Shown one piece after another: positions 15,983-57,400 of a stretch of DNA of 64,000 nt; position 1 is the stretch's first letter, and each line of letters begins with the position of its first letter. Source of the stretch: Antedon mediterranea (taxonomy: Eukaryota; Animalia; Echinodermata). The translations under genes and the position numbers were made by a program. Under the pieces are notes generated by a model. It did no database searches. It was not told the DNA's origin and saw nothing but the letters and a program-made list of their open reading frames with translations. The DNA is taken from assembly GCF_964355755.1 (NCBI RefSeq), contig NC_092675.1, positions 1,235,812-1,299,811 of the forward strand. The letters run 5' to 3'.

Positions 15983-16772
15983 TAGCATATATACAGAATA
16001 CAGACATTTATTGGTCCAAAAATAAATTCGTTTTGTTGACAAGCTCAAACAATTATAAATATAAAAAGTCATGCATACAAAAATACAAGTGTGATAAAAA
16101 AAATCTTATAAAAATACGAATAAACATCGAACATAGACAAAATATATTTAGTAGTATTTAGCATTGCTTGTACGGTATCAGTAGAAATAAATATTATGTA
16201 TTGTTAAATATGTATACTCTGAATAAACTTGGAAAGCTTAACCTATTTGTGTTGTGTGTAAATTAGCAGTATTAAATACAGTTAAAAAAAATTAAATTTT
16301 CAATAGCGTTTTTGCAATCTGCGTTTAAACATTATTTTTAGATTATTTTTTCATTGGCCTATGAATCGTTTCTGCAATTTGATGTATTTTTCTGTAATTG
16401 TTATGTCTTAATTTTATTATGCCAAGAAAATGAATTTCCATTTTCAGTGAACCAATAAAATTTCTTGAATCTTGAATCTTATATGCACACCAACTACACC
16501 ACTAAATTGCAATTCAACAAGTGTTTATTCTATTTCTCATTGACCCATCAATTAAATAGCCTCCAAAATTCGAATACTTAGTTGCCAAACTGTATATTAT
16601 AGTACGGTACTTTGTAAAAAGCGGAATTTCTTTTTCAAGATAGTTCCGCTGAAGTCACCACTCAGAAGAAGAAGACAAGAAGAATGACAACTATTAACAA
16701 ACAAGTTATCTATCACGCGAAGCACAGTTGCATATCTAAATGTATATTATTCAATAATGCTCATGTATTCGA

Positions 16773-19700
16773 CTACGCCTCTGAATTTTGATGCATTATT
16801 CTGAAATCATCTAACGCTATATAGCCAGTAGATAGATGTTCAATAGCATGAGGCGGATCTGGATCCTCATCACCATTTTCTGATCCAGTTGAATCTGTTT
16901 TAGTGGCACAACTAAAGTCGGTTTCTTCATTTGAAACAGTTGTGTATACATACGTGCAGTCATTAAAAGGCGGTTGGATTGAGTTTGTGGTGGTTTCAGA
17001 GATGGGCATCATGTGTGTATACTCTTCTTCCAATTCACTACTTTCGTATGGATAACATACCTCACCTCCCACCAAGTTGCCTTCATAATTCATGTGAAAA
17101 AATTCCAGTCCTGTATTTGTCTTGCCGGTTTTTAATGGAGCTCTTTCTTCCCTCTGTTTACCTTGTTCTTGCAAATAAGATGCATCCTCATCAACATTAT
17201 CTTCATTGAACTCATCCGGTCTTTTTGTAAGAAGGTCATCAAAGGTTTCTTTTTCAATTGGATGTGGCGATACACTTGGATACATTGTCTAAGTAAAACC
17301 ATAGAAATTAGAAAGAAGCATGGTAAAACCAACATGAAATAAGTTTGAACCAACAATTTAGATGGATTTATTCGTTATTGAAAAAATAGATGGCATTCCA
17401 AGGAACATTCTAGAAAAGGTATTTTTGGAAGAATGCATAATGACTTGTAGCTTGTAAGATCTAGTAGTCTCCACCACTATAAAGCATAGCGCGGTACTTA
17501 CAATAATTGGTATTCTTGGTTCTGGCCATGATCTAAAGTATTTGATATGATATTCCTTTTTATAGATATACACAACCACAAATAATGCCAGTATTATAAT
17601 ACTTGGTGCCAAGATAATCACAGGTATTCTTGAAGCTAGAAATAAAAAGATACAAGTTATATTAATATTTTGATAGTTGGCAATGAGAATTAAAGATGCA
17701 TCATCGTTATGAATCGTCTCTTTATATGAATCACTAACAATTTTGATTTTCATGTAAATTAATAAAATTGTACAACACAATAAAGTTAACTAATTGATGA
17801 TTGTCTGCTGGAAATTAGGCCTACTATAAGAATTTACAGCGACATATAAAAATATCTATTGAAATATGACCTGTACATTTGTTTTAATAATACTGTACCA
17901 ACAAATAGGCCTATCCCAATTCAAACTTTTCTGTAATTGTAATTCTCAAGCATATCATTACGTTTAGTGCGTGTAGTATTTTCGCCCGTAACTCCTATGC
18001 CTGTGACATGGTCAATGTCTGGAGAACTAGGAACTGAAGGATAAAACGGGAATAAATAAGTTTAAAATCAATGGTTTGAGTTATGAATAATACACTGTTA
18101 TGATTACCGATAAATGAATTTCTTATGCCTTCTGACCAAGGTCCAGAGTTCAATTCTAACCTAGTGCTGTTTCAATTTCACTCATTAAGCCACAAATTAG
18201 GCTGCATTGTTTATCCAGTATTATCTTCTGTTGCATGTTTTGGGAAAACAAGAAACACAATCTTGTTGATATTAGTTATTATTATACACCATAACAACTA
18301 AATGAAAATGTTTGTTATGTGTTCAATTCGTTACATGGTGTGCATTATGTAAATCTTAAAACTGTATCCACTATATAATATTGAAGTACTAATGTTTATC
18401 CTAATCCAATCAATTAAATTAACTATTATACATTGAATATAATACTTATTTATGACATAAATAATGTCGATATTAATTATGTTCAGGACTTGATAATTAC
18501 TTATTACGTATTGCAGGATGCTACTGATAATTAATAATTGAAACTTACCTTCCTGCTGACTGGTTGAGTGCACAATCTTAAGACTACTGGCACCTTCCCC
18601 TACCTTAGTACTGGCTGTCATCCACACCACATATTGCGTAAAGGCTTCCATTCCTTGAAGTCTATAAGTGATTTTACCTAAAAATTGTATTGATCGTTTA
18701 ACTATATCAGAGCCGGACGTATCTATCAGCAACAAAAACAGATTATTAACATTAATACAGTAGGCCTAAATACAATATCTTTTTAAAAACCTTTTCATGT
18801 TATTATGTACAGTATCTAAATTATTCTCTTCTGCGTTATGGTTTATTTTGTCTATATTGTTTTTATCTCAATTTATTGACTTTATTCAGATAGGATTTCC
18901 AACAAAGACCATTCTCATTTATTGCTACTTTTATTATTCTTTCTACCAAAATGTATTAAAATACTTACTTTTTTGGTAGTAAATATGGTAGTTAGTAATC
19001 ACACCATTTGGTTTCTCTGGTGGTTGACATGAAATGAATAATACAGTTGCATTTGTTTTTTCGGATTGTACTAAGAGTATTACAGGACCGGTTCCAGGAA
19101 CTATAAATAAAACAACGAATAAACAGATTATATGCAGGTTTTCCTTATAGTCTCCTACATCATTTTTCTTATTTTCCTCAGTTTTTATTTTGTTTAGTTT
19201 TCACCTTATATTTTGTCTTGGTATGCACATGCTAGATTATTCGATAAGCCTAACCAACTGTACACATACCACCTTCCAGTGTTTGAGTTGATGTAGTTGG
19301 TCCCCAATCACTCCACTCATTATTTAAAAATCTTGAACGTGCTTGTAAGTTATATTCTGTGTAGTAATCCAGACCAATAATCTTCACCGTATCATAATGA
19401 TAATTATAATCATTTGAATCCTAAAAATACGACCATAAATTTCAGTTGCAATATTTTCTCGGTGGTTTCTTCAATATAGATTTGTAACCCTTTTTAAAAT
19501 TAGTGTCAGAAATAAAAGGGTATGTATACGGTGCACAGTAACCTTTGAATCTGTAAAATGAGGTCTGTCGTCCACTAGAGATTATGGTAGCTTCATCTGA
19601 CACTGCTAACAAAAAATACTCTGATACGCTCTACAAAACATTTGTTTTACTTTAGTTTGACCTAATAGTTTTTTTCTTCAAAACATGCCGAAATAGAATC

Positions 19701-21776
19701 ATCAAACATATATATATATATTTATTTACTTTCAAATTTACATAAAATTCATACCATGGTCCAGTTGTTTGGTGAACTCCTGAGGCAATAGCGAACTTGA
19801 TAACGGTAGTACTCGTCATTTGACATAATATCGTATTGTAGATTAAAACTAACTACCAATGAAGTACTGCTTGTTTCTACATTAATATCAGGCGGGTGAG
19901 GAATAGCTGAAATAATGGCGTTAAAAAGTTGTTTTTATTTATTCATTATTTTATATAAGTTAATTATATATAAACGCGCATGTGGAACAGTCCTACCTCT
20001 ATAGAAAAAAAATAGAGAAAACTTTCAATACTCAATTGCAATTTTCAAAATATAGCCTATTGTAAAATAATATTTATTTCCTGAAAAAATGATAGCAGAA
20101 ATCACATCTTACTTTCCTTTTTAGGAGAAAAAGACATTTGAGTCGTGGCATTTCCAAGATCGTTTTTAACAGTTATCCTCACACCGTGTTCTGTTGTATT
20201 CATAATATTCCCATAGCAATCATGAGATGGAACTCTACACTTGAACGTACCGATAGGCATAGGACATATTTTCCATTCACTTGTTAAAAAATCAAAGCAT
20301 TATATATAATTAGTATTGCAGCACAGTATTCAATGTATAGGCCTACTTCTCTTCACATATTTCTGTAACACAAAACTGTTATAGTAAAACAATGGTATTC
20401 TATAAGTAACCAGTCAAGAAGGTATAATATATCATAGTTTCTTTATAATAATGTGTCCACCCCATTTGTGGGATGTGTAAACAATACTTCTTACCCTTGT
20501 TTATGTTCATATTCAAATATATAAGTTTCTACTAGATTTGTATCTTCGACCTTTGACCACACACATACATAGTTGACAGCATCGGTTGACGAACATGTAA
20601 GTATTGGCTTAGTTGGTGCCACTATAAATAGATGTATTGTAATGTAAACATTTTATACTGTTATGGTTGTTTATAGTTATCGTTATTTTATATAAGATCT
20701 TCTTTTTCCCGCCACACTAATAATAATTAAAACGTAAACTTACCTATGTGCAGCTCTGTTCCATCCGTACTATTTCTTGAATCTGGCAAACGACAATGGT
20801 ATTTATTATTATTATTAGCACCCGTTAAGTTCTGTAATGTTACCATAGCCACTGAATCTGATTAGGAGTGAGTGAGTGGCCGAGCGGTTAAGACAGTGGA
20901 ACCGTAATTACGTAGCCATAACATCGGCAGGGGTTCGAGACTCACTCACTCCATGGTTCTGGTGGTCGAACGAGTCTTCTCGGATAAGGACTATAAACCG
21001 TAGGTCCAATGTACACATCTAGCTCGTGTGCACTTTAAAGAACCTAGTACATCTTTCGAGACGAGTAGGGGGTTACCCCGGTGTATTAGTACATCACAGC
21101 CACTGACCAACTGGGAGACCAGTCTTTGACTGAAGAGTTTGCCCAGTATAAATATAGATTTCAATCAATATGTATTTCTGATTTGTTTACTTTAGTGGAA
21201 TGGGCGGAATTTTTTAAAATTTGTAAACTGATGTCGCAATTACTAGGATTCCTCTACAAAGGATTTCAATCATGAATTCATGATGTTAGAATTCACTTAC
21301 CGTTTACGATATTTTCCCGTATTTGACCTTGATACGTTGGTCCCCAGTCACTCCACTCTCTATATTTAAATTGTGAACGTGCTTGTAGGTTGTACTGAGT
21401 GTAGGGCTCAAGTTTACTAATAGTAATTGTATCATAATATCGATAGTCATCTGAATCCTGAAAAGTATATATGTAGATTGTACAGCGTAAAACAATTATT
21501 GTAGATGGAAAAAATAATGTTAACCATCTTCGTATTATTGTGTGCTGGTATTTTTCATCATCGACATCCATTATACAGTGTATACGATCGGAGGAATCGT
21601 TAAACCTAAATTCGTTTTAGTCGTCTATAAATAATTATATAACTCAACTTAATTAGTAAACGTAAATTTATATATAAATGCAAGCAGTTAAGACAGTTAA
21701 ACCGTAATTACGTACGGTAACCATAACATCAGCAAGGGTTCAAATCTCACTCGCTCCTGTTCTGGTGGTAGAACAA

Positions 21777-21808
<32 letters not shown>

Positions 21809-24800
21809 ACAGTGTACGCATCTGGCTATTATTATTATATCGATATGCTGCTGATGATGCTGATGCTGCTGCTGCTGATGATGATGATGCTAATTCAGCT
21901 GCTACTGCTGATGCTGCTGATGCTGTTGGTGATGCTAATACAGCTGCTGCTGCTGCTGCTGATGATGATGATATATGGTACTTAGATGTTAAAATCTAAG
22001 ATGAATGACAACCATAGCTTATACAATTTCACTTACCTCTGTCCAATTGTCATCTGTATGATTCTTGCAGTAACGAATTTGGTAACGCAAAGTGTTTTTA
22101 TAGTGAGTAATATCTGGTTGTAATTCAACGTTAATTTCCAATGATCTTTTTTTCCGTTCTACCTTCTTAATTCTTGGTGGAAATGGGATGGCAGCTAAAA
22201 AAACAATAACATTTAGCATGTTTGTTTTTATTGTTGCTGTTGTGGTTGTTGTTGGTTCCCCTACAGGCATACCGTACATATTTCATTAAACTGAAATGTA
22301 AATTATATTATTAATAATAAACTTTTTCTTACCCATGTCAGGATTAAAAGAACGTTGGGTTGAAACATTACCAAGATAATTGGTAACCGTTACCCTGATG
22401 CGATGGTTAGTTCCTGGGTTAAAATAATTTCCATCATCGTCTTGAAGCGGAACATTACACTTAAATTGACCTACATATTCAGGGCAGGTTCGCCAAGGAC
22501 TTCCGTTTAAAAAAATTAGAGAATCTGGTCTTTAACATGTTTGTTTGAAATACACATGGTACAATCATAATTAATTAATGATTTATCACAACAAAATGTA
22601 TATAATTATTACTGACAACAATTTTAACAAGTCTTCTTCGCATCTGTTACACTGCAGTACAAAGTTACAATTACTTTGTTGTCAAGGAATGTCTTAATTA
22701 AGTTGTTATAAGCAGTTAGTACTGCTAAAACATAATAAAAACTTGGTAATATTTGTACATGCTTTTACTTTACTGTGCCATTTTGCAATTTCAATACTGT
22801 CGTACTCACAATAGCAAGCAAGCGCAGAAATATAACAAAGGAGATACAGGCCGGTGAATAACTTTTCTGGCTGTTTGACTTTATCGTTTTGATTTAGCTT
22901 TTCGCTCGTATCTCCATCGAGATCCTGCCACTGATACCCACAGCACTTTCAGTAATTTGTCTTCGAAATTAAACACTACTTACGTTTCATACTTGTATTC
23001 AAATATATATGTATCTCTTAAATTTGTGAACTCAATCTTTGACCACTCACACCAATAATCAACAATATTTGTTGAAAAACAGTTGAGTGTTGGTTTCGTA
23101 GTTGGCGCCACTGTAAATGAAATGTTATAATGGATACTGATACTGGTTTGATATTTTTGATCCAGGAGATATGACTAGACAATGAGATTGTATAATATTT
23201 GGATAAAAGAAAAATCAAAAAATTTGTTAAGCTTTGTCTGGACTTGGTTCTCACTAGAGATGCAAGGCATAGACGTAGACAAGCGATTCGACCAATGACA
23301 AGCAACAGTTCGAATAATCCATCGCTTGTGATTGTTTAAATCACTTACGTTGCACATACGTTATTCCGTTGCGTCTGTCTAGTGAGAACCAAGCTGAATG
23401 AATGTTAGTGCAATGACGTAGTGCTTGTAGTGATTTGACCAAGCACAAGCAATGGATTATCCAATTTTACAACTCCCTGTCCAAACTGCCTCTTGCGTTG
23501 CATCTACATCATTGCTTTGCTTGTGTAATGGGAAAGAAAGACAGAGTCGTTTTGAATAGAAAATAGTATAGGCCTAAGCACTAAACATCCCGTCTTCCAT
23601 TTTGTGTAATGAACCAAGTTTTATTACAGCTTGGTAATCATAGTCATGACTATCTCATCACATGGAGAGGTCAGAATTAAATAAATTTTGTATTGATAAA
23701 TTGCTTCTCTAAACACTTGATCTTATTCCTGAATTTTAAAATAAACTTACTTCCAATATGTAAAGTTGTTGCGTGCCATAATGAATTTGGTAAATAACAA
23801 TAATATTTATAATTTGCCATCGTTAAGTTCTGCAACCTTAGCATAGACACTTTGTCTGATAATATATCTATCTCCGATGGGTCTATTCTGTCGGTATCTG
23901 GTTGGAAACTAGTCGTCCATGTGATATTTCTGGATTTATACGTAGCCGATATATTTAATGTACAACTAATATTTAAATCTGACCCAGCATGTAAGATGGG
24001 ATTCAACGGTGCTATAGTATCTAAAAATCAAAGATAAATTGTTAAATCAAATGGTGTATATTGTGATCAAAGCTGTAAAAAAAATACTAGCTACTATAGT
24101 TGGGTTTTCATCCAATTTTAGGAGGAAAATTATATAAATAATTAATTTTATTCTAATTTATCTGTCATTTTTAAAAAAAAATTGGAAGATTTCTATTAGG
24201 ACCTAGACAACTGTGATAGATTCGGAAGTACGCATACCAGTTGATGACTGAATGGTCCTTGTAAGAATAGGATTTGAGTATTTACCTGTTATATAGGTTA
24301 ATAGTATAGAATATGAGATCAAGGAGAGAGAGATGGGTGGGAGAAGGGAACATCTGATCTTTAAATATTCATGCATCATGGGCTACATGATGACCGCAAT
24401 TGTACTGTATTGTGAAAGTTTTAAACTACATTTGAAATCACTCTGGTAATAATGAAAGCAGTTATAAGTAGGGGACAAGACAAAACATTTTTTATGCAAA
24501 GAAGACATATTACAATAAGGATAGATCAAAAACCACCAAGGAGGTGGTGCATTACCATCACGCAAACTTACTTATCTGCTTTTTCATAACTTCTGTTTTT
24601 CCAATAGAATTAAACACAACGACACTAATATAAAACTGTTCAAACATTGACATTTCTGTAGGAAAATAAAATAAACGTTAACAAAAGTTTGTGTAAAAGC
24701 AGTTTGATAAGCAATATATATAAGAAGAAAACGAGAAAACAAACATTGCAAACACGGGTACGTGTGTACCTGAATTCAATTCAACACGGGTACGTGTGTA

Positions 24801-27800
24801 CCTGAATTCAATTCACACGGGTACGTGTGTACCTGAATTCAATTCAACACGGGTACGTGTGTACCTGAATTCAATTCAACACGGGTACGTGTGTACCTGA
24901 ATTCAATTCAACACGGGTACGTGTGTACCTGAATTCAATTCAACACGGGTACGTGTGTACCTGAATTCAATTCAACACGGGTACGTGTGTACCTGAATTC
25001 AATTCAACACGGGTACGTGTGTACCTGAATTCAATTCAACACGGGTACGTGTGTACCTGAATTCAATTCAACACGGGTACGTGTGTACCTGAATTCAATT
25101 CAACACGGGTACGTGTGTACCTGAATTCAATTCAACACGGGTACGTGTGTACCTGAATTCAATTCAACACGGGTACGTGTGTACCTGAATTCAATTCAAC
25201 ACGGGTACGTGTGTACCTGAATTCAATTCAACACGGGTACGTGTGTACCTGAATTCAATTCAACACGGGTACGTGTGTACCTGAATTCAATTCAACACGG
25301 GTACGTGTGTACCTGAATTCAATTCAACACGGGTACGTGTGTACCTGAATTCAATTCAACACGGGTACGTGTGTACCTGAATTCAATTCAACACGGGTAC
25401 GTGTGTACCTGAATTCAATTCAACACGGGTACGTGTGTACCTGAATTCAATTCAACACGGGTACGTGTGTACCTGAATTCAATTCAACACGGGTACGTGT
25501 GTACCTGAATTCAATTCAACACGGGTACGTGTGTACCTGAATTCAATTCAACACGGGTACGTGTGTACCTGAATTCAATTCAACACGGGTACGTGTGTAC
25601 CTGAATTCAATTCAACACGGGTACGTGTGTACCTGAATTCAATTCAACACGGGTACGTGTGTACCTGAATTCAATTCAACACGGGTACGTGTGTACCTGA
25701 ATTCAATTCAACACGGGTACGTGTGTACCTGAATTCAATTCAACACGGGTACGTGTGTACCTGAATTCAATTCAACACGGGTACGTGTGTACCTGAATTC
25801 AATTCAACACGGGTACGTGTGTACCTGAATTCAATTCAACACGGGTACGTGTGTACCTGAATTCAATTCAACACGGGTACGTGTGTACCTGAATTCAATT
25901 CAACACGGGTACGTGTGTACCTGAATTCAATTCAACACGGGTACGTGTGTACCTGAATTCAATTCAACACGGGTACGTGTGTACCTGAATTCAATTCAAC
26001 ACGGGTACGTGTGTACCTGAATTCAATTCAACACGGGTACGTGTGTACCTGAATTCAATTCAACACGGGTACGTGTGTACCTGAATTCAATTCAACACGG
26101 GTACGTGTGTACCTGAATTCAATTCAACACGGGTACGTGTGTACCTGAATTCAATTCAACACGGGTACGTGTGTACCTGAATTCAATTCAACACGGGTAC
26201 GTGTGTACCTGAATTCAATTCAACACGGGTACGTGTGTACCTGAATTCAATTCACACGGGTACGTGTGTACCTGAATTCAATTCACACGGGTACGTGTGT
26301 ACCTGAATTCAATTCAACACGGGTACGTGTGTACCTGAATTCAATTCAACACGGGTACGTGTGTACCTGAATTCAATTCAACACGGGTACGTGTGTACCT
26401 GAATTCAATTCAACACGGGTACGTGTGTACCTGAATTCAATTCAACACGGGTACGTGTGTACCTGAATTCAATTCAACACGGGTACGTGTGTACCTGAAT
26501 TCAATTCACACGGGTACGTGTGTACCTGAATTCAATTCACACGGGTACGTGTGTACCTGAATTCAATTCAACACGGGTACGTGTGTACCTGAATTCAATT
26601 CAACACGGGTACGTGTGTACCTGAATTCAATTCAACACGGGTACGTGTGTACCTGAATTCAATTCAACACGGGTACGTGTGTACCTGAATTCAATTCAAC
26701 ACGGGTACGTGTGTACCTGAATTCAATTCAACACGGGTACGTGTGTACCTGAATTCACACGGGTACGTGTGTACCTGAATTCAATTCAACACGGGTACGT
26801 GTGTACCTGAATTCAATTCACACGGGTACGTGTGTACCTGAATTCAATTCAACACGGGTACGTGTGTACCTGAATTCAATTCAACACGGGTACGTGTGTA
26901 CCTGAATTCAATTCAACACGGGTACGTGTGTACCTGAATTCAATTCAACACGGGTACGTGTGTACCTGAATTCAATTCAACACGGGTACGTGTGTACCTG
27001 AATTCAATTCACACGGGTACGTCATATGTTTTCTGAATTCAATTCTCAAACCGTTCAAATTGACCTATAAGTCTGCCATCTTGAGTGCCAAATTACCCAA
27101 TTAAAGGGCATTTAGGCATTTTCGATAAGGCATTTGAAAGCATGTACTTACCTCTAATGATCATCTTATCAGATGAAACATTATATTGTTCACTAATTGT
27201 TTGAGAATCATTTTTCCACAGAGTTACTTGGTAACCTTGAAGTTTACCTTTCAGCATATCTTTTGAAAATTTCTAATAAAAATAAAAGTGTAAAAAAGTG
27301 TAATGAACATTTATTGTTATATCTATATATAAATTTACGTAAGGGCAAAATTCGGTAAATCGCGCGTTATTTCTAGAATGTTTACTCGATGGTATATAAA
27401 GTTGGTTAGAATCTCGGTACTGATTTTAACCACCAGATGTAACCCTGTTTACTAATTAAATTGAGTTAGATAATTAGTTATTGACAATTAAAACAAATTT
27501 AGGTTCAACGATTTGCCCCAAATAGGGGTGTTTTTCGATCGTGGTATACACTGTCTAATGGATGTCCGTCTTGAAAAATACCCGAAGACAATAATACGAG
27601 GATGCTTCGCATTTTCCTATCTCCTCCTACGATAATTGTTTTTAATGGCTGAAAACCGGTTGAACAGCTCGAGTACAGCATCATAATGTTGAAGACAGGC
27701 CTATTTTCTTTAAAAAATACTATTTTGATAGATTTAATATACGTTTATATAAATGTATTGATTTGCGATGAATGGAACATTCCAATCTCTGTTCCACAAG

Positions 27801-30800
27801 TGTCTATTCCCTCAGGCGTCGTAAAGGCCAGTACTGTATACAGTACTCATAACAGAAATTCGATCCATTTTTTTCCCAATCTGTACTGCAGAGGTTGGAT
27901 ATAATTTTTTTTAAACGGATAATGAGCTACCGTTTTCAGTCGCCGTATATTATGTACAAATCTTTATTATTGCATTTAAACCACCCACATCATCACCCTT
28001 CCCTCACTGCCATGAGTAGCGTTGTAAAGCCAGTAGAGGATAAGCCTATACGGTGCATCACATGCCCTAAACGCAGAACAACTTTGGTGGGTAGGGTAGG
28101 AACCAACTTAATTATGAATTGGCTCTAAGAAACAATTGAAAACCATTAGGCCTACTAATTAAGTTGAGTTAGATAATTTAATATTATTGACGATTAAATC
28201 GAACTTATGATTTTCCCCGAATAGAGGTGGTTTTCACAAATTGTTTAACATTATATATAAACATACGTCGTAGTGTATCGTTACATGTACTGTACTATTT
28301 CAATCGACTACGACGATGATAGTTTCAACAAAGGATTACATCGCAATGTTTTACTGTGTTTAGTGGTATATTATTTGTAAAACATGAAAACAATTAATAT
28401 TTCGTTACAAAATAAAGAATATATTTAAAAATTGTTCCTCTTTGCACCCATCCTCTTCCCCATCCCTCAACCATAATGTTACATACAAAACACAAAATAA
28501 GTTAGTTTAAATCTGACTTTTAAAACAATTGGTCTCATTGTGTGACAAGTTTCTCTTTCGGAAGTAATTCCCAGGGTGCTAATTTTAGTTGAGTACATAA
28601 ATCACAGTGTCTATTTATTCGTTCCTGTAAACGACATGTATTATTGTCCTGCATTATTGTACATTTGAAGTCGCCAGTTTTTTAACGCTGAAATCATTAT
28701 GTATTCGAGAACCATCTGTGGGCACGACCTAGATGGTACGCGAGCGAAGCGAGCGTACCATCTAGTATATATAAATTTACGTAAGGTAAAATTCGGTAAA
28801 TCGCGCGTTGCTTCTAGAATTTTTCTTCGATGGTATATAAAGTTGGTTGTACTGATTTTAACCACCTAACATAACCCTCTGTTTACTAATTAAGTTGAGT
28901 TAGAAAATTAGTTATTTACGATTAAAACGAATTTAGGTTCAACGATTTGCACCAATTACCGCTGTTTCCCGATCGAGGTATACACTGTTTAATGGATGTC
29001 GATGCTGGAAAATAGCCGCACACAATAATGAGGATGCTTCGCATTTACCTATCTCCTTCTACGATAATTACGAAGACAAATCAAATTGCTTTAAAAAAAC
29101 AAACTATTTTGATATATGTAATACATTACTATACGCGTATACAAATGTATTGCGATGAATGAATATTCTGTCTCCCAGTACTCCATTTTGGTATAATGCA
29201 AGTAGGTAAATTTATGGGTCCTTGTGGAATAAACTTAAAACCTTTAAATATAGTATTGCAATTCTGTTGTTAGTTATAAGTTTTCCTCCATGTATAACAC
29301 ATTTTAACAATACTGTAAATACATATTAACCATTTTTGGTCGCCATTTGAAACGCTGATTTCTTACTGTACGTGTGGGTACTGTTAGATATATAAACACA
29401 TATACAAACTTTATTACTGACAGTTGGTTCTCAACGTTTTTATTGATTAATAATTACAACAAATATAAACGTCGTAGTGGTGTATCGTGACATATTATGT
29501 ACTTTACTATTTCAATCGACTATGACTATGACAGTGACATTTTCAGCAAAGTATTAAATCGCAAATGTTTTTATTAGTGGTATATTATTTATAAAACATG
29601 AAAACAAATATTTCAATACTGAATAGATAAAAGAATTTATTTTAAAATTGTTCCTCTTTGCACCAATCCTCTTCCCCATCCCTCGACCCTAATGTTACAT
29701 ACAAAACACAAATTGGGTATATTTAAATTTGGTTCAAAAATGTGTTTTTTTCGGAAGTAATTCTCAAGGTACAAAGTTTTAGTTGACTATGCAAACGAAT
29801 CACATGTATTTTACATTCCTGCGGTACGTACATTTTAAATCGCCATTTTTTACTCAGAAATAACTATGTGTATTCGAGAACCATCTAGTAATGATAATTA
29901 TTTGAATATCAGTACAAACACACTTATTATTCATGTATTTTAGAACTTCAAATTATAACATTATACTATACCGTCCATTGCACCATGATGTCTCTTGTTT
30001 TAAAAGTATTTTTTATGACAGTGACACTAAAATCAACATAGCCTTCAGGTTCTAGTTTTATATTAAAAAAAAAAGATTTAAGCAATTATTAACAGTATAA
30101 ATTCTGCTGAATCAGTACACAGTCGCAATGAGTATCGATAAGGTGTGGGGTCAAAATTGCAACAAAAAAAACACATACATTTCCTAATACAAAAAAAGGA
30201 ATAGGCCTACTATAATTGGTAACCGCGCGCATATGTTTTACTAGGGTCAAACAAAAAACAACATTATCAGTTAATTTGTTACCCAATCAGATAAAGATAT
30301 CAGATATTAAAGAAAATAATGTGCGCATGGTCAGTCATTGCCGAACAACCAAGTGCCCAATCATAACGCAACAATCTGTATCTAGGTCAAAGGTTAAAAA
30401 ATGATCAGATCATTTTTAAAACGGTTGGACAACATCATTCTACAAAATCTCACGTTATAATAAAAATTCATATCATCTTACCACCTTCCAGTGTTTGAGC
30501 TGAATACGTTGGTCCCCAATCACTCCAATCGTTATACCGAAATTTCGAACGCGCTTGTAGCTTGTACCAAGTGTAGGGCTCAAGTTTAATAATAGTGATG
30601 GGCTGATTATAACGATTATCGTCATCTGAATCCTGAAAAAGTAATTATGAGAGAGAAAATAAATAGAATTGTTGTGAACATCAAGAATTTAAGTTAAATA
30701 AAATTAAGAAAATAAACAAGGCCATATACATGGCTGCAGTCGCGTGCTCAAGTTAGTGTTTACCGACCAACCGACCAACAGACCGACCAACCAACCGACA

Positions 30801-33800
30801 TAGACAGCTGTAGAGTCGCGTTGCACGCGACTAAAAATAATGCTGTTCAAATAGAAACGTGAATTTTGTTCAATATAAGCATCTTGTGAAGACTCAATTT
30901 GATATTAATAAAATATTAAAACCTATGATAATAATGATGAATATGATTTACACAATATAAATAAAGTAATTTTAAGCAACATGGATATAGATTACAAGGT
31001 GGATAATATAATGGAGAAAATAATTGGCTGTAGGCCTATACATATTCGAATAACAATAGAATATAATAACAGAAAAGAAAAATATTTGATTAATGATATG
31101 ATGATTGATCTGTATTTGGTAAACAAGAGTAATACATTCTTACCTCTTTCCAGTTTTCGTTTGTATCATTCTTGCAGTAGCGAATTTGGTAACGTAAGCT
31201 GTTCTTATAGCGACCAGCATCTGGCTGTAGTTGAACAGTAATTCTCAGTGTTGTACTAGTTGGCTCTACCTTCTTAATACTTGGCGTACGAGGGATGGCA
31301 GCTAAAGCAAATAATAATATATTTCATGGGATTTTCTGTGTTTTTAGGTTACAACTTAAAACTCATGATCCTTTAGTATTAAAATAATGTTTTAAAGGAA
31401 GATTGATTAAATTATTTTTCAATATTCATTGATTTGATCTGCTGCGTAAACACATTGTTTTGTCTTAGTTTATTATACGCAAGTAATAATCTTTACTTAC
31501 CTATGTAACAGTCAAAATTAATTTGGGTTGAGGCTTCACCAATAAAATTGGTAACGGTTACTCTGATACGATGGGCAATTGCTGGATTGTTTGCAGAATT
31601 AATGTTACACCTAAATTCACCAACTTGTTCAGGGCAAGTTCTCCATGAGCTTGAGAAAAACAAGAATTATTAATTATGAATAATCCGAGTTGGTTAAGTA
31701 TTTGAAAAATACACGTTACTGCTCTCAAGTGAAGACCATCTCATATGGTCACCGTGCAATATCTTATGCAGCTCCTATGCTTTGGAATTCTCTTCCAAAC
31801 TGCATTAAAGATGCACAGTCGGTGGTTCTTTTTAAGAGACTATTAAAAAAGCATATTAATCCCCGTTTTTCTCATTTTCCCTGGTTAGCGACGAGGGCGT
31901 ATCCACTAACTTCGCTTTTTTTTTTTTTTTTTTAAATCCCTTTTATCGTATTAGTTTATGTACAACGCTTAGAGGTTTTACAACAGTAGGCGCTATAGAA
32001 ATCGAGGTGGTTATTATTATTGTTTCTAGACCTAGAGACCCCCAAGAGCTTAAGGGGAAAAAGATACAGAAAAAGTACATCATAATAAGATAAAGATAAG
32101 ATGCTAATACACATTTTCTTAGAAACAAACCACATTACACTGGTTACAATAAGTTACATAAGATAAGTTACAATATTTGGTATTTAGGACATGTATTACT
32201 ATATTACATAATATAAACCTGAAAACATTTATAATCAAAATAGAAACTCGGGCATTATATTTCTAAATGGCAGCAAATTTAATAGTTGTTTTATATAATC
32301 GGACAGTAGGTACTTACTGTTTATATTCATATTCAAATGTATATGTATCCTTTAAATTTGTGTTCTCGATTTCTGACCACTCACACCAGTAATCAATTAT
32401 ATTTGTTGAAAAACAGTTGAGTGTTGGTTTAGTTGGTGCCACTGTAAATAAGTAAATTATTCCATACTGTAGTCAAGATAGGTCATGGATTGGTTGGTAA
32501 TTTCAAATTGGGCAAAGAGGTGCATTGATAATGTTAGTAATTCTAAAAGAAAATGCAGAGGCATATGGGGAACCGAGGGTGAGATGGGCGGTGCTGGTTG
32601 TACATACTAAAATAAAGCTGATCCAGCCAGCATTGCAAAATTACAATGGATGTTTTATTGAAGTTGATACATATTTAAAATGTTATCTTCGTTTGTCAAT
32701 CATTTGTACTTTTGGAGAATGGATGCGTATAGCCTACACGTCAAAACCACCATCCACCCCCCACCATAGAAAAAATAGTTCGTTTAGTTGTGGATGTTTT
32801 AATCAAACAAATAAAAGGAAACTTTGTGTTATTTTGTCAGTGTATTGAGAGGACATACGAGTACTAAATGTCTAATGAATATGTAATCGCATTCTTAAAT
32901 TTAATCTTACTTCCTATATATATATAGGAATTTGGTAAACAATGATATTAATAATCACTTATTGACCGTATCCGGACAACTATCACAATTACCACCCGGA
33001 CAACTACTCTCTGGACAACTACACCTATGATAACTACCCCCTAGACAACTACCCCCTAGGACAACTACCCACTAGGACAACTACCCACTAGGACAACTAC
33101 CCACTAGGACAACTACCCACTAGGACAACTACCCACTAGGACAACTACCCACTAGGACAACTACCCACTAGGACAACTACCCACTAGGACAACTACCCAC
33201 TAGGACAACTACCCACTAGGACAACTACCCACTAGGACAACTACCCACTAGGACAACTACCCACTAGGACAACTACCCACTAGGACAACTACCCACTAGG
33301 ACAACTACCCACTAGGACAACTACCCACTAGGACAACTACCCACTAGGACAACTACCCACTAGGACAACTACCCACTAGGACAACTACCCACTAGGACAA
33401 CTACCCACTAGGACAACTACCCACTAGGACAACTACCCACTAGGACAACTACCCACTAGGACAACTACCCACTAGGACAACTACCCACTAGGACAACTAC
33501 CCACTAGGACAACTACCCACTAGGACAACTACCCACTAGGACAACTACCCACTAGGACAACTACCCACTAGGACAACTACCCACTAGGACAACTACCCAC
33601 TAGGACAACTACCCACTAGGACAACTACCCACTAGGACAACTACCCACTAGGACAACTACCCACTAGGACAACTACCCACTAGGACAACTACCCACTAGG
33701 ACAACTACCCACTAGGACAACTACCCACTAGGACAACTACCCACTAGGACAACTACCCACTAGGACAACTACCCACTAGGACAACTACCCACTAGGACAA

Positions 33801-34858
33801 CTACCCACTAGGACAACTACCCACTAGGACAACTACCCACTAGGACAACTACCCACTAGGACAACTACCCACTAGGACAACTACCCACTAGGACAACTAC
33901 CCACTAGGACAACTACCCACTAGGACAACTACCCACTAGGACAACTACCCACTAGGACAACTACCCACTAGGACAACTACCCACTAGGACAACTACGCAT
34001 TGCAGTGAACCACCAATATCTTTCTCTGTATTTATGTCCATTTATGCATTACATCATTCCGTTAATTAATCACGCATAACGGAGAGTAACTATCGCAAAA
34101 CCATATAAAAAGTTTACAAAAGAGGTTGTTTAGATGTCAAAGAAAAAAATATTCTCTTCTCTCAAAGTAGAGTTTCTCCAACAGCTAATAATATAATTAT
34201 AAAAGAAACGTTTGTCGTGTTAATGCTGTGGGTTTCAAAATACCATATAAATATTATGCCAAATAATAATTATGTTGGTAATAATCTCATACAACATATG
34301 GAGTGGACAGAATTAACTACTAAATATTTAATCGTTATTTAAGCTTACTTCCTACGTATACATATGTTCCATGCCATGACGAATCAGGTAAATAACAATG
34401 ATATTGATCTTTGTAATTTGCCATCGTTAAGTTCTGTAACCTTAGCATAGCCTCTGAGTCTGATATGATATCTATCTTCGATGGGTCTATTCTATCAGTA
34501 TCTTTACCAAAACTAGTCGTCCATATGATATCTCTTGAGGTATACGTGGTTGATGCATCTAATGTACAAATCATATTTAAATCTGATCCAGTAGCTACGA
34601 TAGGGTCCATCGGTGTCATGATCACTAAAAAATAAAATGTTTGTTTAAGAAACTTTAGAACAAGATGTCTCCCTTGTATTAAAATATCATCCAAATTTGT
34701 TTTCGCAATAAGAATTAATGGTAGAATCTTTTCATGATATTTTTATAAACTAATATTATTATTAGAAAGTACGAAAAAGTATTTGTTTTACCTGCACGGG
34801 CGCTGGCCTGATATAGTTGTTGAAAACATAAGCCGATAAGTATATATAGTGTAGTCAT
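16773..34858 (-). CDS. Class I cytokine receptor-like paralog B with three cytokine-binding modules (24 exons, ~1275 aa)
   Basis: Exons: 34792-34858 (SP), 34349-34624 (Ig1), 32318-32441, 31501-31649, 31144-31301, 30482-30632 (CBM1, WSDWG), 29972-30051, 27152-27272, 24572-24655 (FN3), 23751-24020 (Ig2), 22984-23110, 22333-22499, 22037-22194, 21301-21457 (CBM2), 20744-20857 (half Ig3), 20495-20621, 20113-20279, 19755-19906, 19270-19420 (CBM3), 18969-19100, 18549-18722 (FN3), 17962-18033 (stub), 17502-17635 (TM+WPEP), 16773-17288 (tail). Open frame, GT-AG and phase-compatible throughout (3828 nt). Joining into one transcript is inferred. Confidence 0.7.
20865..21150 (+). mobile_element. tRNA-derived SINE (related copies at ~21680-21825 and ~39172-39425)
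   Basis: A box gtggccgagcggttaag and B box ggttcgagactc; shared body gtcttctcggataaggac..gtaggtcca..tgtacac..ctagctc and tail cccagtataa. Confidence 0.85.
21846..21971. repeat. Imperfect (GCT/GAT)n trinucleotide microsatellite
   Basis: tgctgctgatgatgctgatgctgctgct... Confidence 0.9.
23243..23393. mobile_element. MITE with 16-bp TIRs; related fragments at ~4570-4745
   Basis: cttggttctcactaga ... tctagtgagaaccaag; internal gaccaatgacaagc motif shared with the 4.6 kb region. Confidence 0.7.
24752..27022. repeat. 32-bp minisatellite, ~71 copies (acacgggtacgtgtgtacctgaattcaattca)
   Basis: Near-perfect tandem array with occasional 1-bp deletions and one short unit; no spacers. Confidence 0.98.
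27325..29890. repeat. Diverged intronic tandem duplication containing a dispersed repeat (27330-27790 ~ 28765-29170; 28240-28720 ~ 29445-29885; inverted copy ~21480-21680)
   Basis: Shared strings tatataaatttacgtaagg..aattcggtaaatcgcgcgtt and aaaattgttcctctttgcacc..tcctcttccccatccctc each occur twice. Confidence 0.75.
30715..30837. mobile_element. Short dispersed repeat with (accga/ccaa) tract; inverted copy at ~37728-37890
   Basis: aacaaggccatatacatggctgcagtcg...gtcgcgttgcacgcgactaaaa is the reverse complement of ttttagtcgtgtgcaaacgcgac...gcagccatgtatatggccttgtt. Confidence 0.7.
31714..32022 (+). mobile_element. L2/CR1-like LINE 3' fragment
   Basis: KTISYGHRAISYAAPMLWNSLPNCIKDAQSVVLFKRLLKKH matches the typical L2/CR1 ORF2 C-terminus; tail cgcttaga...ggcgctataga...(tta)n. 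Confidence 0.7.
32893..32950 (-). pseudogene. Relic 3' end of an Ig exon with donor, inside a paralog B intron
   Basis: Plus-strand cttacttcctat...gaatttggtaaacaatgatatt resembles the Ig2 exon end cttacttccaat...gaatttggtaaataacaataatatt, with an internal deletion. Confidence 0.45.
32973..33996. repeat. 16-bp minisatellite, ~60 copies (ggacaactacccacta)
   Basis: Perfect array 33059-33996 preceded by degenerate units. Confidence 0.98.
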
Positions 34859-54400: not shown

Positions 54401-57400
54401 GGTTCTACAAACATTTTAAAAATGTACTTCAAATGTTATATGACTTCAATAGCCACTTACTTTGTGTGTTCAAACAATATTTTAAGAGCAAGTAATTGAG
54501 CTTATAGGCCTATCAAGAATGAATAAATTAGTGTAGGCATTACACCATTACATTACACTACATTACACCATTACAGTACTATTGTTGTATAAGTTACTCA
54601 TAATCACACAAATTGTAGGCATTACACCATTACAGTACTATTGTTGTATAAGTTACTCATAATCACACAAATTTATGATTCTTGCGTCATGTTATCAAAT
54701 TGAGTTCAGATTTGCATATATATAAAGATAATGCGTTTGTGTTCTTAGTTCATATATGGTATGTCTAAAACTTCTAGAGATTACTTTTTCCTAGTATCCG
54801 CATATGGGTAAACAAGTATATATACATTGTAATGATTGCCATCTACACTTCAGACGGTATGTAAACAAGCATTGGGTTATATCTATGCAGCAAATCTAAA
54901 ACCTTTGCTAGAGAATATTTGTCATTTTACACACTGTTAAACGGCTATCAATGAAATAGCAAGCAAAAAAATAAATTATACCATTAAAGGGCACTTACCG
55001 TCTGAATGGTCAATTATCTGCTTTTTCTCAGCAGCTTCTGTGGACCCAATAGAACTATATGCAACAACACTAATGTAAAACTCATCAAACATCGAAATGT
55101 CTGTAGGAAAATAAAATATACTTTAACGCATGTTTATGTAAATTTGCATAAATAGTATGTATAATAAGTGTAATAAATGGTCATTTATTTGCTTTTGCTA
55201 AGCAGCTTATGTGGACCCAATATAACTATATGCAACCACACTAATGTAAAAGTCATCAAACATCGAAATTTCTGTAAGAAAATATAATAAATTTTAAAAC
55301 ATGTCTGTGTAAAATTGCATAACTAGTATGTATATTATAATAAGTGTAAAAGTATTAACGTACCATGTATGGTCATATTAACAGAAAAATTAGAAACATT
55401 ATGTTGTTCACTAATTGTTTGACAATCACTTTGCCACAGAGTTACTTGGTAACCTTGAAGTTTACCGTTCAGTTCATCTTCTGAAAATTTCTAAAAACAA
55501 AACAAAATTGTTTATCAAATATTTATTTTATAAATATTGGTGCCAACGCTGGTAAAGAAAACATTATACTATACCTTCCATTGCACCAGGATATCTCTTG
55601 TAAAAGTATAATTGGTAGCAGTGATATTAAAATCAACATGACCTTCGGGTTCTATTTTTAATAAAGATGTTTACTAAAATTAGTTTGGTAAACAATAAAT
55701 AATTATTGGGATTTAAACTTAAGGATTGGGTAAGAAACATCCATCATTTATGGAGAAAGATTGGAGGTACCGACTTGAGGGAGGGAGTCAGAATTAAACA
55801 CAATATTTTCCATCGCATCAAATATTCATATTATAACAGAAATTCCCTTGCTGACCATGCCACCTTCCGATGCAAACATGTTATAATTCCAGTACATACT
55901 CAAGAAAGATATTGCTTTTCAGATGTTACTCTACATAGTTTATCTACCGTTGTATCTTTTTAATCGGACTTGCTGTCAACCAACATTTCTTTGTAATTTT
56001 ACGAAGATAAATAAATGTCTTATATTATAACATTTGGTATACATTTAAAATAAGTGAAGTCTATGTATTATCAAGACTAGACAAACTTACCACCTTCCAG
56101 TGTTTGAGCTGAATACGTTGGTCCCCAATCACTCCAATCGTTATACTGAAATTGTGAACGTGCTTGTAGGTTGTACCGAGTGTAGGGCTCAAGTTTAATA
56201 ATAGTAATTGTTACATCATAACTATTGTTAACGTATAAATCCTGTAAAGCAAATTATGAAAATAATTAAAAAATATTTTACCTGTATGTGAATGCTCAAA
56301 ATATCTAATCAAATCGTAATAAAGACACAAATTTAGACAGATACTCTTAAAAACTACGACAATAATGATGAGATTATGATCATAAAACGATTACTGTGGC
56401 CTAGAATTTGCAACAGTAAATTCATATTGTACCTCTGTCCAGTTACCGTTAGTGTTATTCTTGCAGTAACGGATTTGGTAACGTAAGCTGTACGTATATG
56501 TAGTAATATCTGGTTGAAGTTCAACATTAATCGACATTGACGTATTGGTTGGCTCTACATGCTGGATATTTGGCGGAAGAGGAACAGCATCTAGACGAAA
56601 CACATTTTACATTTTGTTATTTTCCACACACAGGCAGCCGAATTCGATATGAAAGTTATACATGATATAAGTATTATTGGTGGTAAATCCAAAGGCAATT
56701 ACGGAAAATGTGACAAATAAAATTAGCACAAATTTTAATAAAAACGATAAAGTAAAACATCCAGAAAGGAAGTGCCAAGTCAGGGATAATGAGATTATTT
56801 TTATTGTTATTTCATAAAAACCATTGATTTCTCTTCAATTAACGAATTTATCCTTTTTATTAATTTTTTTATGATATATACTTTTTACTTGCGCTAATTC
56901 TTATAGCTTAATAAGTAATAAATGTTTTCTTACCTTTGCTGGGATCAAAATCAATTTTGGTTAAGGCGTTGCCAAGATAATTGCTTACTTTTACCCTGAC
57001 ACTGTGGTCAATTCCTGGATTCAAATAAGTTCCATTGTCGTCTTTAAGTGGAACATTACACTTGAAATTACCTACATATTCAGGGCAAGGATGCCAGCGT
57101 ATGTTGTTTCTGTGAAATATTAAATAATTTATTTTGGTAATTTGCATATTCAAATAAGTAGCAACATTGTATATAAGAAATAAAGTTACTTAGAAAATAT
57201 TCAATTTTTAATAGATAAAACAAGGAATCTAATTTACAACAAATTCAATCTTTAGAAAGAAAGCTTTATATGCCCTGATGAAATAAAGTGCCTTTTCTAC
57301 ACACAATTAAACACTAGGTACTTACGTTCCATCTCCATATTCGAATATATACGTATCTTTTAAATTTGTATATTGGATCTCTGACCACTCGCACCAGTAA

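What the first reader, a model, noticed from the sequence alone, without database searches (positions are those of the whole stretch)
16773..34858. Single predicted receptor with three Ig-CBM modules in tandem
Seen: only one signal-peptide exon (34792-34858) and one TM exon (17502-17635) bracket three complete CBMs, each with 4 Cys and WSDWG. The FN3 exon 24572-24655 ends in phase 1 and joins Ig2 in frame, and I found no signal exon before Ig2 or Ig3. All 24 exons are open. Known: LIFR, LEPR, MPL and the common beta chain carry two CBMs; I know of none with three. Inference: fusion of successive tandem duplicates into one multi-ligand or high-avidity receptor.
Basis: partly seen in the sequence, partly recalled or inferred. 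Interest (0 to 1): 0.8.

Follow-up and report, generated by a model that had tools for sequence, protein, structure and literature searches.

The report
Feather-star triple-module cytokine receptor gene
In a feather star, parts of three duplicated cytokine-receptor genes sit in one open reading frame that would give a receptor with three ligand-binding units, more than in any relative found here, but a full-length transcript is untested and the public annotation splits it into three genes.

Summary
The anatomy is mostly real; the single transcript is not shown. The window is Antedon mediterranea (a crinoid) and holds four gp130/Domeless-type receptor genes in tandem. At the finding, 24 GT-AG exons join into 1,275 open codons with three cytokine-binding modules (CBMs), each with 4 Cys and WSDWG. 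Two corrections: the third Ig is only its last 38 residues, broken by a SINE, so there are two Ig-CBMs plus a bare CBM; and a signal-peptide-like exon candidate lies before Ig2 (24379-24286). The modules are 49-66% identical and are not one clade, so this is a fusion of diverged neighbours, not an internal triplication. Modules 2 and 3 show no relaxed selection, while dead pieces in the same cluster are visibly decayed. RefSeq splits the locus into three fragments; one crosses both module junctions. No other of 110 proteins scanned has three CBMs; two-module forms occur in Diadema and Ptychodera. Verdict: likely a fused three-CBM receptor (about 0.5); rivals are young decaying read-through (0.27) or two units (0.18). 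New variant of a known kind.

The parts
34792..34858 (-). Signal-peptide exon (22 aa), with an acceptor 18 nt upstream of the ATG as in the three paralogues
   Evidence: start of RefSeq XP_071953201
34349..34624 (-). Ig1 exon, complete, 2 Cys
30482..32441 (-). CBM1, four exons: 32441-32318, 31649-31501, 31301-31144, 30632-30482; 4 Cys and WSDWG; sister to XP_071953995
31765..31839 (-). Cryptic terminal exon used by RefSeq XP_071953201 (180 aa); lies in what looks like an antisense LINE 3' end (label recalled); acceptor -1.6 bits against 13.8 for the proper acceptor at 31649
24572..30051 (-). First post-CBM FN3 in three exons: 30051-29972, 27272-27152, 24655-24572 (last one 15 nt shorter than in gene A, still phase 1)
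24751..27022 (.). Satellite, 32-nt unit x 71, inside the intron between the second and third FN3 exons; assembly across it not tested
24021..24571 (-). Junction 1 intron (551 nt), FN3 to Ig2; no detectable remains of TM or signal exons of the paralogues
   Evidence: one DNA contig spans it
24286..24379 (-). Candidate own first exon of module 2 (ATG, 31 hydrophobic codons, phase-1 donor); no upstream acceptor and no likeness to the family's signal exons. The same site could instead open a 48-nt in-frame mini-exon 24285-24238 (not significant)
23751..24020 (-). Ig2 exon, complete, 2 Cys
   Evidence: predicted fold confident
21301..23110 (-). CBM2, four exons: 23110-22984, 22499-22333 (RefSeq starts at 22529), 22194-22037, 21457-21301; 4 Cys and WSDWG
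20873..21163 (+). Young, abundant SINE (tRNA-like head recalled from its look) inserted within the third Ig; about 30 nt of Ig-like sequence remain on its upstream side, ending at 21164
20744..20857 (-). Ig3 remnant: last 38 aa only, one Cys; possible acceptors 20857, 20851, 20782 (RefSeq) or skipped, all in frame
19270..20621 (-). CBM3, four exons: 20621-20495, 20279-20113, 19906-19755, 19420-19270; 4 Cys (plus a fifth) and WSDWG; most diverged module
18549..19100 (-). Membrane-proximal FN3 in two exons (19100-18969, 18722-18549), matching gene A's second post-CBM FN3
17962..18033 (-). 24-aa stalk exon
   Evidence: an X1 contig piece ends exactly at its donor
17502..17635 (-). Transmembrane exon with Box1-like WPEP
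16773..17288 (-). Cytoplasmic exon (171 aa), nine Tyr; lacks the family's SSDQGFH segment and C-terminal DYSQ motif
   Evidence: an X1 contig piece ends exactly at its acceptor
32998..33996 (.). Satellite, 16-nt unit x 63, in the intron after Ig1

Best explanation
Exons from three diverged gp130/Domeless-type paralogues lie in one open, phase-matched chain that is likely spliced as one gene into a membrane receptor with two Ig domains and three cytokine-binding modules. Shown: the open 24-exon chain, three complete CBMs, a broken third Ig, and that the modules come from different lineages of the cluster. Inferred: two deletions removed the tail of gene 1 with the head of gene 2, and the tail of gene 2 with the head of gene 3; because the cut points fall between phase-1 exon edges the frame survived. 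Inferred: the Ig3 remnant is skipped or kept as a short linker, so CBM2 and CBM3 abut. Predicted function: a multi-ligand capture receptor or co-receptor. Each CBM would keep its parent's preference for a helical cytokine (module 1 is 82% identical to XP_071953995), Ig1 or Ig2 would supply the site-3 contact that Ig3 lost, and Box1 would recruit JAK. The shortened tail would signal more weakly or differently than the full-length paralogues, with which it may pair.
For: Open frame and canonical splice sites at all 23 introns; all four ways across junction 2 keep the frame. Only one family-type signal exon and one TM exon serve three CBMs, so modules 2 and 3 can only be used through a fused or newly started transcript. 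RefSeq XP_071953200 joins 24572 to 24020 and 21301 to 20782 to 20621; whether RNA supports those introns I could not see. No relaxed selection: pairwise dN/dS 0.35-0.58 for module 2 and 0.46-0.60 for module 3, against 0.57-0.75 among the other modules; private changes syn:non-syn 14:12 and 26:21, like intact gene A at 12:14 (this count is biased to conserved columns). Simulated neutral decay leaves Ig2-to-end open in 20% of runs at 1% divergence and 9% at 1.5% with substitutions only, 3% and 0.4% with indels; the SINE at junction 2 has 3 near-fixed private changes in 237 nt. Dead pieces in the cluster look dead: the Ig behind gene C keeps only 52-54% identity with stops and indels. 7 of 7 listed haplotype SNVs in 17082-20893 are intronic, where 37.5% is exon (P about 0.04; table cut by 2 rows). 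Module 2 is predicted to fold like gp130 D1-D3 and CRLF1. Hint of age: CBM2 groups with gene C's CBM (SH-aLRT 88), and the dead Ig behind C shares 9 of 22 Ig3-private bases (6 intact state, 7 other; tree 95/77, long branch).
Against: The full-length join rests on prediction only. RefSeq breaks the locus into three proteins of 180, 422 and 473 aa, with a cryptic terminal exon, a read-through stop after 20495 and two internal Met starts. A search with exon 31301-31144 returned only two paralogues among 4 candidates (weak). Weak acceptors at 22499 (0.0 bits), 19906 (-0.8) and the Ig3 remnant (-8.7 to 2.0). dN/dS between paralogues mostly records history before the fusions. If the fusions are very young (0.3-0.5% divergence) open frames are expected by chance (17-63%); junction 1 is undated. 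A possible own first exon precedes Ig2. In run X1 the cytoplasmic exon carries 5 non-synonymous differences among 8 listed (one contig with six may be a paralogue). The junction-2 introns of B and C show no significant likeness (z 0.5-1.8). The cluster is full of similar deletion debris (gene D half CBM, gene C dead Ig, gene A dead exon copy).
Confidence: 0.5

Rival explanations
1. Young deletion debris: the fused unit is transcribed weakly and mis-spliced, gives mostly truncated or decayed messages (such as the 180-aa form), and its frames are open only because little time has passed.
For: RefSeq's three fragments with odd splice sites. Broken Ig3 with a young SINE. Weak acceptors. Lost tail motifs. 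Neighbours show repeated decay. Open frames are likely at 0.3-0.5% neutral divergence.
Against: Whole-locus openness falls to 7.5% or 0.1% at 1% divergence, without or with indels. 0 of 7 haplotype SNVs are exonic. Both SINE flanks at junction 2 are also in a second sample, X1, so that arrangement is not private. X1 contig ends and bin depth fit splicing of the last three exons. The Ig3 remnant is no more diverged (63-71%) than CBM3 (61-65%).
Confidence: 0.27
2. Two transcription units: a front gene making a secreted Ig-CBM(-FN3) protein, and a second gene that starts at its own exon 24379-24286 and makes a 903-aa membrane receptor with one Ig and two CBMs.
For: ATG, hydrophobic stretch (8-residue maximum 2.19, against 2.41-3.02 in true signal exons) and strong phase-1 donor; rare in control tiles, 1 of 112. 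The join is open to the stop, 903 aa. Gene C next door is modelled as such a secreted Ig-CBM protein. AATAAA signals lie in the 29971-27273 intron (the DNA is AT-rich).
Against: All 4 true signal exons are internal exons with an acceptor 11-19 nt before the ATG (8.0-13.2 bits); the candidate has none (-5.3, -3.2) and only 192 nt separate it from the upstream donor. No DNA likeness to family signal exons (z at most 0.2). Its hydrophobicity may simply reflect a pyrimidine tract. Exon 24655-24572 has an intact donor (8.6 bits) with Ig2 as the next family exon. RefSeq does not use the candidate.
Confidence: 0.18
3. Assembly artefact: pieces of separate paralogues or haplotypes were stitched together.
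Against: Junction 1 lies in one contig; 17082-20227 lies in one contig in two haplotypes; depth is even at about 30-37 in X2 and X3; modules are too diverged to be alleles.
Confidence: 0.03

Closest known systems
Neighbouring A. mediterranea receptors XP_071952712 (gene A, 1,126 aa) and XP_071953995 (1,119 aa), and Anneissia japonica XP_033111316
   Same: Same Ig, CBM, FN3, TM and tail families; 46-82% identity per module; same WSDWG or WSEWG, Box1-like WP(E/D)P.
   Different: One CBM followed by four or five FN3; long tail with SSDQGFH and DYSQ motifs that the finding lacks.
gp130 (IL6ST) and CRLF1
   Same: Module 2 model matches CRLF1 (8d7h, E 2e-19) and gp130 D1-D3 entries (1i1r, 8dps, 1p9m; target TM-score 0.72-0.76); CRLF1 is also the best sequence hit, E 3e-8.
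   Different: Single Ig-CBM; about 20% identity; ligand and signalling known there, untested here.
Two-CHD vertebrate receptors LIFR, LEPR (OBR), OSMR; MPL and the common beta chain
   Same: Repeated CBM in one ectodomain: full in LIFR, with a duplicated Ig in OBR, partial in OSMR (PMC1963337, passages). In LEPR the proximal CHR and the Ig bind leptin while the distal CHR bends away (PMC10066393, passages). MPL and beta-common with two abutting CBMs are recalled.
   Different: At most two modules; ancient and conserved. The finding has three, from a lineage-specific fusion within a crinoid cluster; it is not their orthologue (groups all modules with crinoid paralogues against brittle-star-type outgroups; vertebrate rows were not in that tree).
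Diadema setosum XP_072174704 (1,077 aa), D. antillarum XP_071489118, Ptychodera flava XP_070577341
   Same: Invertebrate RefSeq models with a second Ig and CBM N-domain; the Ptychodera order Ig-CBM-FN3-Ig-CBM(part) equals the front of the finding.
   Different: Two modules, second one incomplete or weak; 25-28% identity; predicted models, and the Ptychodera one has near-identical repeats and may be an annotation fusion.
Drosophila Domeless and its short partner Eye transformer/Latran
   Same: A tandem neighbour of a gp130-like receptor that modulates JAK/STAT signalling (PMC2914635, PMC4751595: search listing and abstract starts only).
   Different: One CBM; function shown by experiment; no fusion.

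Membership tests
Class I cytokine receptor (gp130/Domeless type) | [quoted passage not shown] | tested here: met
   Cys 124/134/161/170, 504/514/541/550, 744/754/782/791; feature from PMC7378365 passages
Class I cytokine receptor (gp130/Domeless type) | [quoted passage not shown] | tested here: met
   WSDWG in all three modules and in the intact paralogues; last residue G, not S
Class I cytokine receptor (gp130/Domeless type) | Ig plus CHR fold | tested here: met
   Module 2 only: confident model for residues 61-360 of XP_071953200 and gp130/CRLF1 as top Foldseek hits. Modules 1 and 3 were not folded.
Class I cytokine receptor (gp130/Domeless type) | Complete Ig domain before each CBM (the finding's title) | tested here: not met
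   2 of 3; Ig3 is a 38-aa remnant with one Cys
Class I cytokine receptor (gp130/Domeless type) | Single TM followed by a proline-rich Box1 | tested here: met
   TM exon 17635-17502 with WPEPRIP, aligned to paralogues; Box1 label by likeness, recalled
Class I cytokine receptor (gp130/Domeless type) | Cytoplasmic tyrosine docking sites for STAT | tested here: inconclusive
   Nine Tyr in the last exon; no YxxQ (motif recalled); family DYSQ motif lost
Class I cytokine receptor (gp130/Domeless type) | Binds a helical cytokine and activates JAK/STAT | not testable with these tools
Class I cytokine receptor (gp130/Domeless type) | Expressed as one signal-to-tail polypeptide | tested here: inconclusive
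   Open join; RefSeq split in three; read evidence only for the last three exons, and that inferred
Two-CHD receptors (LIFR, LEPR, OSMR, MPL, beta-common) | Exactly two (or one and a half) CHDs arising from an old internal duplication | tested here: not met
   Three CBMs that do not form a clade: works like them at most, not a member

The most novel reading that the evidence does not exclude
A working class I cytokine receptor with three cytokine-binding modules, built by end-to-end fusion of three diverged paralogues, in a crinoid cluster that shuffles Ig, CBM and FN3 exons. It would show in a living, datable locus how two-module receptors such as LIFR and LEPR can arise, and could sense several of the feather star's candidate IL-6-type cytokines with one chain.
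Probability: 0.4. Interest if true: 0.68.

Novelty: new variant of a known kind. Interest (0 to 1): 0.5.

Why it matters
Invertebrate deuterostomes are usually described with one or two class I receptors (two in Ciona, PMC1963337; one in amphioxus, PMC12284397; passages). This window alone has four, with one, a half and three CBMs, soluble and membrane-bound, and at least one more paralogue lies outside the window on the same contig. If the fused transcript is real it is a three-CBM receptor, which I did not find among 110 proteins or in eight literature searches, and a natural model for how duplicated-CHD receptors form. It is cheap to test by RT-PCR. If it is debris, it still shows a fast-changing receptor cluster that automated annotation fragments.

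Tried and rejected
No whole genome was held, so the other paralogues could not be mapped. No RNA holder was listed for 16700-24740; X1 is only guessed to be RNA. X1 gave no spliced contig at either module junction and no cover of exon 24655-24572; this blank is not evidence either way. X1 contigs over 23959-24121, 21106-21557, 20693-20891 and 20350-20564 are unspliced and could be pre-mRNA or DNA; no silent control stretch was laid. My first guess that X1 bin depths hid a 24572-to-24020 splice was wrong. Internal triplication: rejected (AU p 1e-82; B1+B2 4e-9; B2+B3 0.03; gene D and one long-branch row left out). A full decayed 5' half of Ig3: not detectable (z at most 0.6); only about 30 nt next to the SINE fit (best match ends at 21164-21165 for 6 of 6 Ig queries; 8-78 of 500 shuffles reach it). 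An FN3-tail mini-exon at 24285-24238: 62 of 500 shuffles reach the score. Remains of signal, TM or FN3 exons in the junction introns: none above z 2.2. Shared junction-2 intron between B and C: not significant. Further receptor exons in the gaps or on the plus strand: only the dead Ig at 5442-5395. Earlier scan notes near this place, by sequence and by words: nothing. Literature search for three-CHD receptors returned unrelated acronyms or nothing. The spliced 1,275-aa product was not folded or searched remotely; no complex prediction was run.
Full report
Setting. The window is 33% GC animal DNA. A search with the Ig1 exon returned six proteins, all Antedon mediterranea. Seven RefSeq proteins thread exactly onto the window, so it is this crinoid's assembly or a near-identical one. 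The minus strand holds four related genes: A (58901-50268; signal, Ig, CBM, four FN3, TM, tail), D (44584-38565; signal, Ig, half CBM, two mini-exons, TM, tail), the finding (B), and C (8514-5409; signal, Ig, CBM, no TM). A fifth paralogue, XP_071953995, is on a contig of the same length but not in the window.

The observation. The 24 exons join to 3,828 nt and 1,275 aa with GT-AG at all 23 introns. Profiles built from the homologues find Ig-CBM-FN3-Ig-CBM-(half Ig)-CBM-FN3. Each CBM has four N-domain Cys and WSDWG. The RefSeq protein covering module 2 folds confidently over residues 61-360 and matches CRLF1 and gp130 D1-D3 best; CRLF1 is also the best sequence hit in the PDB. DNA contigs span junction 1 in one piece and most of modules 2-3 at even depth; these runs are one sample and may be the source of the assembly.

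Two corrections. First, Ig3 is only its last 38 residues. Likeness to the other Ig exons starts at 20861-20864, at the edge of a SINE. About 30 nt of Ig-like sequence remain on the other side of the SINE, ending at 21164; further upstream nothing is detectable. Second, the junction-1 intron has an ATG at 24379 with 31 hydrophobic codons and a 10.2-bit phase-1 donor, seen in 1 of 112 control tiles (thresholds chosen after the fact). It lacks the upstream acceptor that all four true signal exons have and is unlike them in sequence. It remains unexplained.

Origin. The modules are 66% (1-2), 49% (1-3) and 52% (2-3) identical. Module 1 is sister to XP_071953995 (82%; 97/98). A tree holding the three modules together is rejected (quick method; D and one long-branch row left out). 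Module 1 is followed by the family's first post-CBM FN3; module 3 by an FN3 that matches A's second. This fits two deletions that joined three diverged neighbours (inferred). There is a hint that junction 2 is old: CBM2 groups with C's CBM (88), C is also followed by an Ig, now dead, and that Ig shares 9 of 22 Ig3-private bases. The introns do not confirm it.

Is it alive? Pairwise dN/dS is 0.35-0.60 for modules 2 and 3 and 0.57-0.75 among the others, but this mostly predates the fusions. Simulated neutral decay keeps Ig2-to-end open in 63/35% of runs at 0.3% divergence, 20/3% at 1% and 9/0.4% at 1.5% (without/with indels at an assumed 10% rate). The SINE copy has 3 near-fixed private changes in 237 nt, about 1.3%; this dates the SINE, not necessarily the fusion. 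All 7 listed haplotype SNVs in 17082-20893 are intronic (P about 0.04; two table rows not shown), and the exonic changes at 16938 and 23994 are silent. Against this, X1 shows 5 amino-acid changes among 8 differences in the cytoplasmic exon. Dead pieces nearby are obvious: the Ig behind C and A's duplicate exon near 55270, which has two in-frame stops (read; 86% to the live copy).

Transcript evidence. RefSeq has three proteins that tile the locus: XP_071953201 (signal, Ig1, first CBM exon, then a cryptic exon at 31839 and stop), XP_071953200 (internal Met at 27257, across junction 1, CBM2, across junction 2 by 20782, ending by read-through after 20495) and XP_071953197 (internal Met at 20203 to the tail). 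The breaks are not at module borders, and both module junctions are modelled. I could not see whether RNA supports these introns; internal starts and early terminal exons also fit ab initio fragmentation (my inference). In X1, a run guessed to be RNA, two contig pieces end exactly at 17288 and 17962, and the depth of bin 17428-17709 (1.61) equals their unlaid letters placed in the TM exon (1.609). This indicates splicing of the last three exons; the joint rows themselves were cut from the table. Both flanks of the junction-2 SINE are present in X1, a second sample.

How it would work. Known: cytokines bind at the elbow of the CHR, an Ig domain gives the site-3 contact, and JAK binds Box1 (PMC7378365, passages). 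In LEPR the proximal CHR and the Ig bind leptin and the distal CHR bends away (PMC10066393, passages). Inferred for B: three CBMs with different loops, two usable Ig domains, Box1 kept, tail shortened with loss of the SSDQGFH and DYSQ motifs that A, XP_071953995 and the Anneissia homologue share. I commit to a multi-ligand capture receptor or co-receptor with reduced signalling output. Unchecked notes from this scan describe several IL-6-type cytokine candidates in the same genome; I did not test them.

Comparison and novelty. A one-module search of 1.84 billion representatives gave 101 hits. Among 104 proteins scanned and 6 more, none but the B model has three CBM N-domains; weak cross-hits of 8-15 bits on FN3 domains were ignored. 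Two occur in P0057, in P0068 (a shark LIFR), in Diadema XP_072174704 and, partly, in XP_071489118 and Ptychodera XP_070577341. The search reaches only relatives detectable from one crinoid module. Vertebrate CHD duplications are partial or twofold (PMC1963337, passages). PMC13203501 (passages) gives the usual layout as signal, Ig, one IL6R domain, three to four FN3, TM, tail; I did not read its supplements, which may list other invertebrate layouts. PMC12284397 (passages) reports a single receptor in amphioxus. I found no three-CHD receptor and no account of this cluster in searches; the library lacks most subscription papers.

Verdict. Observation partly confirmed; interpretation partly supported. 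One fused three-CBM, two-Ig receptor 0.5; decaying read-through 0.27; two units 0.18; assembly artefact 0.03. New variant of a known kind; interest 0.5.

Noticed in passing
window 8514-5165 (-): Gene C: signal-Ig-CBM without TM, a CRLF1-like secreted form. It is followed by a decayed full-length Ig exon (5450-about 5170) into which RefSeq splices out of frame; that Ig may be of the Ig3 type.
   Followed up: partly
window 44584-38565 (-): Gene D: Ig plus only the N-terminal half of a CBM, then two duplicated Ser/Thr-rich mini-exons, TM and tail; no WSxWS. Its Ig exon and the following intron are 83% identical to B's (34018-34659), suggesting recent duplication or gene conversion.
   Followed up: partly
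window 55349-55176 and 54405-54388 (-): Gene A carries a dead duplicate of an FN3 exon (two stops) and a possible trace (EPGKPR; 37 of 500 shuffles reach it) of the extra FN3 that XP_071953995 and the Anneissia homologue have.
   Followed up: partly
window 51017-50535 (-): Gene A's cytoplasmic exon has four or five 96-nt tandem repeats, each with a PYTKI tyrosine motif: an amplified phosphotyrosine array.
   Followed up: no
window 24379-24238 (-): Unexplained exon-like site in the junction-1 intron: either a signal-like first exon or a 48-nt in-frame mini-exon.
   Followed up: partly
P0105 (XP_072174704, Diadema setosum) and P0103 (D. antillarum): Sea-urchin receptor models with signal-Ig-CBM-Ig-CBM N-domain, in one 90% cluster across two species: a likely independent two-module receptor.
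   Followed up: partly
P0011 cluster (XP_071944324 and five more) and P0017: A second, more distant group of A. mediterranea Ig-CBM receptors on other contigs, so the family is expanded at more than one locus.
   Followed up: no
P0090 (Pelodytes ibericus KAM8960856): A gp130 model with about 390 residues that look like LINE reverse transcriptase at its N-terminus; probably an annotation fusion.
   Followed up: no
window 16938: All four laid runs read C where the window has A (silent in the tail exon): an allele or an assembly error.
   Followed up: partly
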